Part shown: positions 20,024 to 21,052 of the stretch, one piece after another
How positions within the stretch are numbered: the first letter of the stretch is position 1
Layout: every line of letters starts with the position of its first letter
NCBI GenBank assembly: GCA_951406725.2
Contig: OX597822.1
Coordinates: 92,256,001-92,320,000, forward strand
Reading direction: 5' to 3'
Length of the DNA: 64,000 nucleotides
Source of the DNA: Octopus vulgaris
Lineage: Eukaryota
Notes under the pieces: model-generated
The model's database searches: none
Seen by the model: only the letters and a program-made list of their open reading frames with translations
What the model was told of the DNA's origin: nothing
Position numbers and translations under genes: made by a program

Positions 20024-20830
20024 TTAAGCAAGTGTCTTCTACAATAGCACTGGGTTGACCAAACCCTTATGAGTGGATTTGGGAAGCAGACTGGAAGAAG
20101 TCTATCATATGTATTCATGTTGTAAAATTTTAGTTTTGAAAAATTTAATTACCCTAAATAAATACAATGTGTAGTAGTGTATCTATCAACTCTTCAGTGT
20201 TTGTTTTAGTTTTAGTCATAACATCCATCCACTTAGCTGTGGTCTTGCCAGGACACCACTAAAATATACAAAATAAACACAGTTTTTTTTTTCTTTTTTT
20301 ATATGATATTTTTAAAAAATGGAAACTTTCGTTTATTTATTCATTGCTATCAGAATCATTTGTATTCTGAGTTAAAAGTTTTCCTTTGAAATATTTTTTT
20401 TGTTGTTGCCTAGTCTGGAGGAATTGCTATTGCCCCTGACCTTTGCAGGCCATGCAGGTTTTCTAAGATTAGTGAGCTTCATGCTATTAATGTTTCATTT
20501 AAATTGTTGAGGTCAGAACTTGTGGGGAAGACCTGAGGATAGAAAGGATACAGTGTGTTAATGTTCTGGGGAAGAAGGACTGAGAAGAGCAGCAAGTGTG
20601 GCACTGAGTGAATCTTCAAAAATAGTGTCTTGCCCCATAAACATAAATGCAGTAGTTCAGAGAATTTAAATCAAGTAGGCTCCTTATTGTTACTTGATCT
20701 GACTGATTTCATAGAATAGCAGCCAAACAACCATTAAATTACTCCCTACTGTCTTAAAAGGCCTTGGAAGTGGATTTCTTAGACATCATCATCATTTATC
20801 GTCCGTTGTCTATGCAGTCATCTCAGTGAG

Positions 20831-20901
20831 CGAGGCAGGCTACCCTGAACTGACGACGAGCAATAGACTCAGAAACATATGTCTTCGGGTGCCTTGTCTC
20901 G
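20831..20901 (+). ncRNA. Minimal type I hammerhead ribozyme of the Penelope type
   Basis: Long stem I CGAGGCAGGCUACCCUGAA/UUCGGGUGCCUUGUCUCG; CUGACGA 20850-20856; stem II GAG/CUC; GAAA 20872-20875; palindromic CAUAUG; GUC cleavage triplet 20881-20883. Confidence 0.85.
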
Positions 20902-21052
20902 GCTTGCGGGGGTGATTGCCTCCCCTTTGCAAATATAAGGACACAGAAAATGTGTCAAAGCCGACAGGAGATGTCGATGTTTCCTAGGGCTAAATGGCGG
21001 TGGTGTAATTCCTTTACAGGGCTGTCACATTGAATTGACAGTATACGACCAC

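What the first reader, a model, noticed from the sequence alone, without database searches (positions are those of the whole stretch)
20790..21052. Second, unrelated minimal hammerhead on the sense strand of the same intron
Seen: a stem I of about 17 bp with bulges, CUGACGA, a short stem II, GAAA, perfect palindrome CAUAUG and GUC, in a GC-richer ~260-bp segment abutting (TA)n. The closing pair of stem II is C20857-A20871, a mismatch. Established: palindromic stem III loops let minimal PLE hammerheads cleave as dimers. Inference: a different PLE or retrozyme family. The C-A mismatch could be a CpG-type G>A change that weakens a ribozyme otherwise able to cut host pre-mRNA at 20883.
Basis: partly seen in the sequence, partly recalled or inferred. 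Interest (0 to 1): 0.75.

Follow-up and report, generated by a model that had tools for sequence, protein, structure and literature searches.

The report
Retrozyme copy with mismatched hammerhead core
This is a cut-short copy of a small mobile repeat that carries a predicted self-cutting RNA, sitting in a gene's intron; the odd mismatch in that RNA is not damage but the normal state of a large set of related repeats in this genome, so it likely marks an undescribed working variant, while this particular copy is probably a harmless passenger.

Summary
The hammerhead is real. It lies in a 240-bp, 5'-truncated copy (20813-21052) of a ~354-nt repeat with the anatomy of an animal non-LTR retrozyme, inserted at a (TA)n tract on the sense strand of a Phactr-like intron. 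The decay idea fails. Of 59 exact family hits, 20871 is A in 56 and G in 1; it is 20857 that varies (C 35, T 24). A relaxed pattern gives 1,941 genomic hits against 0 in the control. Of the first 100 listed, the base of helix II is C·A in 47, U-A 24, U·U 17, never C-G or G-C, while the helices covary across four families. This copy lacks the family's snRNA-type promoter motif, has one ribozyme, and carries a private change at 20887 predicted to slip helix I, so strong host cleavage is unlikely. L1/Tx1-type LINEs insert just upstream of these ribozymes; the scan noted that twice before on other DNA of this genome. Cleavage and circular RNA are untested.

The parts
20813..21052 (+). 5'-truncated copy (about 0.68 unit) of a ~354-nt hammerhead repeat (non-LTR retrozyme type)
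   Evidence: relatives 92-95% identical over 240 bp; unit 354 nt between two cores in L037
20844..20889 (+). type I hammerhead: 6-bp helix I (20844-49 with 20884-89) enclosing the core
   Evidence: (6 of 6 helix I pairs change on both sides across families)
20850..20856 (+). core CUGACGA (C3-A9)
20857..20871 (+). helix II: C·A at the 10.1·11.1 position, then GAG/CUC and a 7-nt loop ending in A
20872..20883 (+). GAAAC, palindromic 2-bp helix III with AUAU loop, GUC; predicted cleavage after C20883
   Evidence: loop 3 palindromic in 79 of 94 cores; cleavage site inferred from the hammerhead consensus
20827..20905 (+). UAC/U internal loop (20841-43, 20890) and distal bulged helix capping helix I
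   Evidence: UAY or UGU before helix I and UG or UA after it recur across families
20887..20887 (+). near-private G (family A) predicted to favour a slipped helix I
   Evidence: A in 26 of 27 relatives; outer helix I pair probability 0.11 against a median of 0.72 in 35 A-bearing copies
20822..20833 (+). predicted family transcription start (about 20824) and the place where LINEs insert in other copies (20833); empty here
   Evidence: start site inferred from spacing only
21053..21102 (.). (TA)25 tract, the insertion target at the element's 3' end
   Evidence: 41 of 91 family pieces are followed by (TA)3 or more
2925..3081 (+). upstream host exon (Phactr-like N-terminal motif); bounds by inspection, approximate
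   Evidence: name recalled from the motif, no Pfam or PDB hit
22850..22941 (+). downstream host exon encoding an RPEL repeat; 3' bound uncertain

Best explanation
The segment is a 5'-truncated, promoterless copy of a ~354-nt hammerhead repeat of the animal non-LTR retrozyme kind, in which a C·A mismatch at the base of helix II is the family norm and is likely tolerated by a working ribozyme. Shown: unit length, copies longer than one unit, two fixed 3' ends at TA-like sequence, inverted 5' pieces, covarying helices, conserved C·A. Inferred cycle: an snRNA-type promoter inside the unit starts RNA about 26 nt before the core. A tandem transcript is cut at two hammerheads, probably helped by pairing of the palindromic helix III of two ribozymes. 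The monomer is ligated to a circle, and a Penelope-like element's enzymes copy it into (TA)n tracts, running through the cleavage site. This copy lost the promoter motif, has one ribozyme and a helix I change. It would be read only as part of the host pre-mRNA and would cut it weakly at best, about 1,970 nt before the next exon.
For: Family: 58 BLAST matches from 40 scored of 2,406 candidates; 59 and 124 exact pattern hits, controls 0. Unit 354 nt, 43% GC, circular fold z -6.7 (0 of 60 shuffles as stable); direct tandem cores in L012 and L037. Of 91 distinct pieces in loci L001-L090, 61 end at one of two unit positions and 31 exceed one unit. Only 3 start near the cleavage site, about what an even spread gives. 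21 of about 66 loci carry inverted pieces. Craig et al. describe this tandem/inverted, microsatellite-biased pattern for PLEs (passages). Covariation on 31 hand-picked cores of four families: 8 of 12 pairs change on both sides, 0 of 500 shuffles as high, slid controls far lower. Helix II base: C·A 47 of the first 100 of 1,941 hits (hand count); C·A 54 and U-A 30 of 94 cores passing a stem filter, from 100 found. In family 1 the T at 20857 is linked to C at 20866 (16 of 17; C goes with G in 18 of 21), so both forms were amplified from separate masters. Promoter motif: ATYAGT at -57 to -61 in 38 of 40 U1/U2 genes; AYCAGT at -84 from the core in 25 of 53 family-1 cores, background 0.8%, absent before the window copy. 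Precedent: an axolotl retrozyme hammerhead with U·U at this position cleaves 22% in 1 h as a monomer and much better as a dimer (PMC7229834, Results).
Against: No cleavage or circular RNA was observed. Only two direct dimers and no long arrays turned up among the loci read. Rfam finds no hammerhead. 10.1-11.1 is among the most conserved pairs and mutagenesis favoured U·U among mispairs (PMC3088659, passages), so C·A may be slow. In Xenopus only 1 of 9 predicted retrozyme dimers cleaved (bioRxiv 2026.07.22.740005, section 15). The covariation rows are related, which inflates the shuffle contrast. No PLE sharing sequence with this unit was found, so the mobilising partner is inferred. The promoter motif was rarely captured in families 2-4 by the script.
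Confidence: 0.78

Rival explanations
1. The unit is the pseudo-LTR of an autonomous Penelope-like element, and the copies are 5'-truncated PLE ends.
For: Fixed 3' ends, (TA)n targets and inverted 5' pieces are PLE traits. Retrozymes resemble pLTRs in Xenopus (passages). Neptune-like PLEs that end at (TA)n occur in this genome.
Against: Upstream of the core lies the previous unit, not an ORF. The 3' regions of two near-complete PLEs share no sequence with the unit, and one has its own different hammerhead. Flanks were only 1.5 kb.
Confidence: 0.1
2. One reading: a once C-G-closed ribozyme weakened by a G>A change at 20871.
For: CA at 20870-71 is what opposite-strand CpG decay would leave; 1 of 59 hits has G.
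Against: A in 56 of 59 in a family about 95% identical; no C-G or G-C among 100 listed hits of several families; no alternative base listed at that place in four runs from three organism labels (12 rows not shown).
Confidence: 0.02
3. The hammerheads are catalytically poor or dead; the repeats spread as uncleaved tandem transcripts, and C·A is simply inherited.
For: Copies run through the cleavage site, which uncleaved RNA also explains. The mispair sits at a highly conserved pair. 8 of 9 Xenopus elements did not cleave.
Against: The core stays fixed while helices I and II change in compensation and loop 3 stays palindromic across families. More distant U3-A8 families keep the same register with A-U or A·C.
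Confidence: 0.08
4. This intronic copy actively cuts the host pre-mRNA and affects the Phactr-like gene.
For: Sense strand, intact core, helix II predicted at 0.73 in context. The palindromic helix III could pair in trans (duplex -7.0 kcal/mol).
Against: One family copy in the window. The hammerhead fold is 4.2 kcal/mol above the minimum-energy fold, helix III probability is 0.02-0.03 and outer helix I 0.11-0.15. There are 10 differences from the family majority, like any ageing copy. This rival is compatible with the best explanation and concerns only this copy.
Confidence: 0.12

Closest known systems
Animal non-LTR retrozymes (Cervera and de la Peña 2020, PMC7229834): mussel ~350-390 bp repeats and axolotl Rtz353 with HHR_Amex2
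   Same: Type I hammerhead in a 150-450 bp non-coding unit under 50% GC, predicted self-paired circle, 2-bp helix III; Amex2 has a mismatch (U·U) at the base of helix II
   Different: Mismatch is mainly C·A; copies are mostly dispersed 0.5-2 units at (TA)n with inverted pieces rather than long arrays; the paper's text does not mention cephalopods (supplements not read); expression and cleavage not shown here
Minimal hammerheads in PLE pseudo-LTRs (Cervera and de la Peña 2014, PMC4209133)
   Same: Palindromic helix III; a nucleotide after A9 before a G-C pair; PLE-like insertion structure
   Different: A second unpaired base before GAAA; 6-bp helix I with a defined capped loop and short helix II instead of short helix I and long helix II; no joined PLE ORF
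Natural U10.1·U11.1 hammerheads (Perreault et al. 2011, PMC3088659)
   Same: Mispair at the first position of helix II
   Different: C·A (and A·C in distant families) is not mentioned in the passages read; that survey rejected hits mispaired at 10.1-11.1 by rule
Tx1-clade LINEs that target other repeats: Tx1L, Tx1-Mar, Keno (PMC4494074, passages)
   Same: APE + RT + zinc-finger LINEs and ORF1-only relatives inserting at one site of a multicopy target and stacking in tandem
   Different: The target is the stretch just upstream of a hammerhead core; that paper lists transposons, snRNA, 5S and microsatellites. Applies to other copies, not the window copy

Membership tests
Type I hammerhead ribozyme | Core C3-U4-G5-A6-N7-G8-A9, G12-A13-A14, A15.1-U16.1, H17 | tested here: met
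   core list from PMC3088659
Type I hammerhead ribozyme | Three helices, open end in helix I, supported by covariation | tested here: met
   8 of 12 pairs change on both sides; helix III pairs invariant
Type I hammerhead ribozyme | Paired 10.1-11.1 at the base of helix II | tested here: not met
   C·A here and in 24 of 31 aligned cores unpaired; natural U·U exceptions are published
Type I hammerhead ribozyme | Loop 1 / loop 2 tertiary contact | tested here: inconclusive
   loop 1 bases and a 3' A in loop 2 recur across families; the contact rules are recalled, no 3D test
Type I hammerhead ribozyme | Match to an Rfam hammerhead model | tested here: not met
Type I hammerhead ribozyme | Self-cleavage after H17 | not testable with these tools
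   needs an in vitro assay or raw reads
Non-LTR retrozyme | Hammerhead within a 150-450 bp non-coding unit under 50% GC | tested here: met
   354 nt, 43% GC
Non-LTR retrozyme | Head-to-tail tandem copies | tested here: met
   direct dimers in L012 and L037; 31 of 91 pieces longer than one unit; no long arrays seen
Non-LTR retrozyme | Highly self-paired predicted circle | tested here: met
   z -6.7 and -9.5 for two natural units
Non-LTR retrozyme | Two consecutive complete hammerheads at the locus ('active' rule of the 2026 preprint) | tested here: not met
   window copy has one; L012 has two
Non-LTR retrozyme | Accumulates as linear and circular monomer RNA | not testable with these tools
   only contigs were available
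Minimal PLE pLTR hammerhead | Lies in the terminal repeat of an RT + GIY-YIG ORF | tested here: not met
   loci L001-L090, 1.5-kb flanks
Minimal PLE pLTR hammerhead | Short helix I with ill-defined loop 1, long helix II, C11.1 directly before GAAA | tested here: not met
Minimal PLE pLTR hammerhead | Palindromic helix III / loop 3 | tested here: met
   the 2014 paper gives this trait to canonical metazoan hammerheads too
Tx1 clade (LINEs found in other copies) | APE endonuclease + RT + C-terminal zinc finger, L1-like | tested here: met
   Pfam PF03372, PF00078, PF13966; best PDB match L1 ORF2p, E 4e-40
Tx1 clade (LINEs found in other copies) | RT phylogeny within Tx1 | not testable with these tools
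   no Tx1 reference set on hand

The most novel reading that the evidence does not exclude
Cephalopod-type retrozymes use a hammerhead variant in which the classic G-C at the base of helix II is replaced by a selected C·A (or U·U, A·C) mispair. The mispair throttles monomer cleavage, so that thousands of dispersed copies, intronic sense copies included, are tolerated, while tandem transcripts from an snRNA-type promoter still cut and circularise. Site-specific LINEs exploit that promoter and the regenerated downstream ribozyme, giving a three-tier PLE / retrozyme / LINE system.
Probability: 0.25. Interest if true: 0.72.

Novelty: new variant of a known kind. Interest (0 to 1): 0.5.

Why it matters
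If C·A cores cleave, descriptor searches that demand a pair at 10.1-11.1 (as PMC3088659 did) miss a class with about 2,000 copies in this genome alone. Natural C·A, U-A, U·U and A·C versions in one scaffold give a ready-made test of what the 10.1-11.1 pair does. The copy anatomy (fixed 3' ends at TA, read-through of the cleavage site, inversions) speaks directly to the open question of which enzymes move animal retrozymes. The single intronic copy itself is probably unimportant.

Tried and rejected
Rfam scans: no hammerhead hit. Sequencing runs: no RNA holder listed; only contigs could be laid. Contigs of runs guessed to be RNA hold family sequence. In the one run with real depth there (X1), all contig depth at 20887 and 20899 carried the family base, not this copy's; these may be other individuals. 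A dip in depth over the core looked like cleavage, but the same dip shows in three large runs of unrecorded kind, probably DNA, so it reflects sequence shared between families. PLE ORFs near family-3 copies (L245, L246) proved to be separate insertions at (TA)n, not joined. A tree of 30 ORF1-only LINE copies was mostly unresolved, and five long rows likely held flank. Host family was clustered (9 changes, shuffled mean 15.2), so it does not count independent insertions. A scan for truncated LINEs with retrozyme on both sides recovered only four full-length cases and one tandem case. Lünse et al. 2017 (PMC5785218) and Long and Uhlenbeck 1994 (PMC44321) were not held; C·A variants may be described there or in unread supplements. 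Searches for prior reports; none of the listed titles or abstract openings showed cephalopod retrozymes, a natural C10.1·A11.1 core or LINEs targeting hammerheads. Repbase was not available.

Full report
Observation. A strict descriptor finds this one site in the window and none in 300 shuffles. Rfam has no model that scores it. The host is a + strand gene: an exon near 2925-3081 carries a motif I recall from Phactr proteins, and the next exon found, from 22850, encodes an RPEL repeat. The predicted cut at 20883 is thus on the sense strand, about 1,970 nt before that exon. The genome is 2.8 Gb in 227 contigs; earlier scan notes call it octopus-like, and I did not verify the species.

The family. 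20813-21052 is one copy of a dispersed repeat, 92-95% identical to its best relatives. Relatives continue beyond both ends into a head-to-tail unit of 354 nt (342 in L012, which has a deletion), 43% GC, folding as a strongly paired circle. Of 91 distinct pieces in loci L001-L090, 61 end at one of two unit positions, 41 are followed by (TA)n and 31 exceed one unit. Only 3 begin near the cleavage site, and 21 of about 66 loci carry an inverted piece. Most of these loci were chosen by core or best score, so the share that spans the cleavage site is biased. The 30 loci chosen by a 3' motif show the same spread. Fixed 3' ends, ragged 5' ends, inversions and microsatellite targets match what Craig et al. 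describe for Penelope-like elements (passages). Reading through the cleavage site into the preceding unit needs a circular or uncleaved multimeric template (inference).

The mismatch. Among 59 exact hits, the pair 20857·20871 is C·A 33, U-A 23, U·U 1, C·U 1, C-G 1 (hand count). A relaxed pattern gives 1,941 hits, control 0. The first 100 listed (all contig C1, one listed twice) are C·A 47, U-A 24, U·U 17, A-U 6, other mispairs 6, with no C-G or G-C (hand count; the pattern fixes the next G-C pair). On 31 cores picked from four families, all six helix I pairs and the middle helix II pair change on both sides, while the base position is unpaired in 24. More distant families with a U3-A8 core have A-U or A·C at the same place and a 6-nt loop. 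This favours reading the position as 10.1·11.1 of a four-step helix, though two inserted bases flanking G10.1-C11.1 describe the same letters. So C·A is the common state, and the T form in family 1 marks a subfamily (linked to 20866). Published precedent is U·U: tolerated in natural ribozymes (PMC3088659, passages) and active, mainly as a dimer, in an axolotl retrozyme (PMC7229834, parts 1-2 of Results).

Minimal or canonical. The 2014 paper defines minimal PLE hammerheads by short helix I, long helix II and an extra base before G10.1-C11.1, and gives canonical metazoan ones a 6-bp helix I, 4-bp helix II and a short palindromic helix III (PMC4209133, parts 1-2 of 4). This one fits the second description apart from the mismatch. 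The other hammerhead, at 16174 on the minus strand, belongs to a separate repeat family whose members show an extra base, then a G-C closed helix II directly before GAAA.

This copy. It differs from the family majority at 10 positions; the one inside the ribozyme that is nearly private is G20887, which lets helix I slip. An earlier scan note proposed that the unit has an snRNA-like start site. I tested this. U1 and U2 genes here carry ATYAGT 57-61 nt before their start in 38 of 40 cases. Family 1 carries AYCAGT 84 nt before the core in 25 of 53 cores (I did not check each of the others for truncation), which places the start near window 20824. The window copy begins at 20813 and lacks the motif. 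It can only ride in the host pre-mRNA, with no second family ribozyme in the window. I therefore expect weak cleavage at most; this is a prediction from folding, not a measurement.

LINEs at the ribozyme. Three family-1 loci hold a ~1.62-kb ORF1-only element with a zinc knuckle and a ~20-bp target duplication that rebuilds the hammerhead downstream. By eye, 28 of 30 5' junctions of that element abut a hammerhead repeat or a stacked element at the same site. Several divergent ORF1-only families stack there. RT-bearing LINEs do the same: 7 of 11 loci with a complete 3' end, the query included, abut a hammerhead and 4 do not. Tail-to-core distance was 26-38 nt in 36 junctions selected for having a core. 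One truncated copy has its own duplication at an unrelated site (L144), and some copies look co-mobilised with the retrozyme, so the number of independent insertions is open. I found this before looking it up; the scan had noted it twice on other DNA of this genome. Tx1 elements that target transposons and snRNA genes are known (PMC4494074, passages).

Papers seen: PMC7229834 (passages, section 11, Results parts 1-2 of 3); PMC4209133 (parts 1-2 of 4); PMC3088659, PMC6765202, PMC6155905, PMC4494074 and bioRxiv 2021.04.23.441226 (passages); bioRxiv 2026.07.22.740005 (part 1 of 5, passages, section 15). No supplements were read; their species tables could include cephalopods.

Verdict. A real hammerhead in an ordinary dead-end copy of a known kind of element. 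New variant of a known kind; interest 0.5.

Noticed in passing
L091/L121, L094/L130, L119/L123, L178, L181, L239-L243: L1/Tx1-type LINEs, both ORF1-only and APE+RT forms, inserted just upstream of hammerhead cores in at least five repeat families, often stacked, with target duplications that leave the downstream ribozyme whole.
   Followed up: partly
L239:8363, L240 and L241 (oriented 9063, 9109), L245:6664: Hammerheads with a U3-A8 core; two have A·C at the base of helix II, one A-U; the one in L245 lies at the 3' end of a near-complete Neptune-like PLE.
   Followed up: partly
window 16118-16200, minus strand: The other hammerhead of this intron: member of a separate repeat family (744 candidates) ending at (TA)n, PLE-type core with U at position 17; antisense to the host gene.
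   Followed up: partly
window 45830-47370, plus strand: ORF1-like element with zinc knuckle, resembling the ORF1-only family that targets hammerhead repeats, but with no such repeat seen beside it in the stretch read.
   Followed up: partly
L252 and L259, at 1500: Two of 20 U2 genes have a LINE-like 3' tail directly before the first base instead of the promoter.
   Followed up: no
window about 3037-3054: A run of about 17 A in the Phactr-like exon shifts the frame to a stop at 3056; one A fewer would read through to the splice donor, so probably an assembly homopolymer error.
   Followed up: no
L055:1500-1561: One family-1 piece ends exactly at the predicted cleavage site.
   Followed up: no
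window 50710-50875: Near-perfect 165-nt inverted repeat, probably a MITE; scores weakly as a plant miRNA family.
   Followed up: no
window 3538-5675: Decayed reverse-transcriptase / RNase H-like frames of Copia type in the same intron (recognised by eye).
   Followed up: no
window 35309-35559: Six copies of a 42-bp tandem repeat, 96% alike.
   Followed up: no
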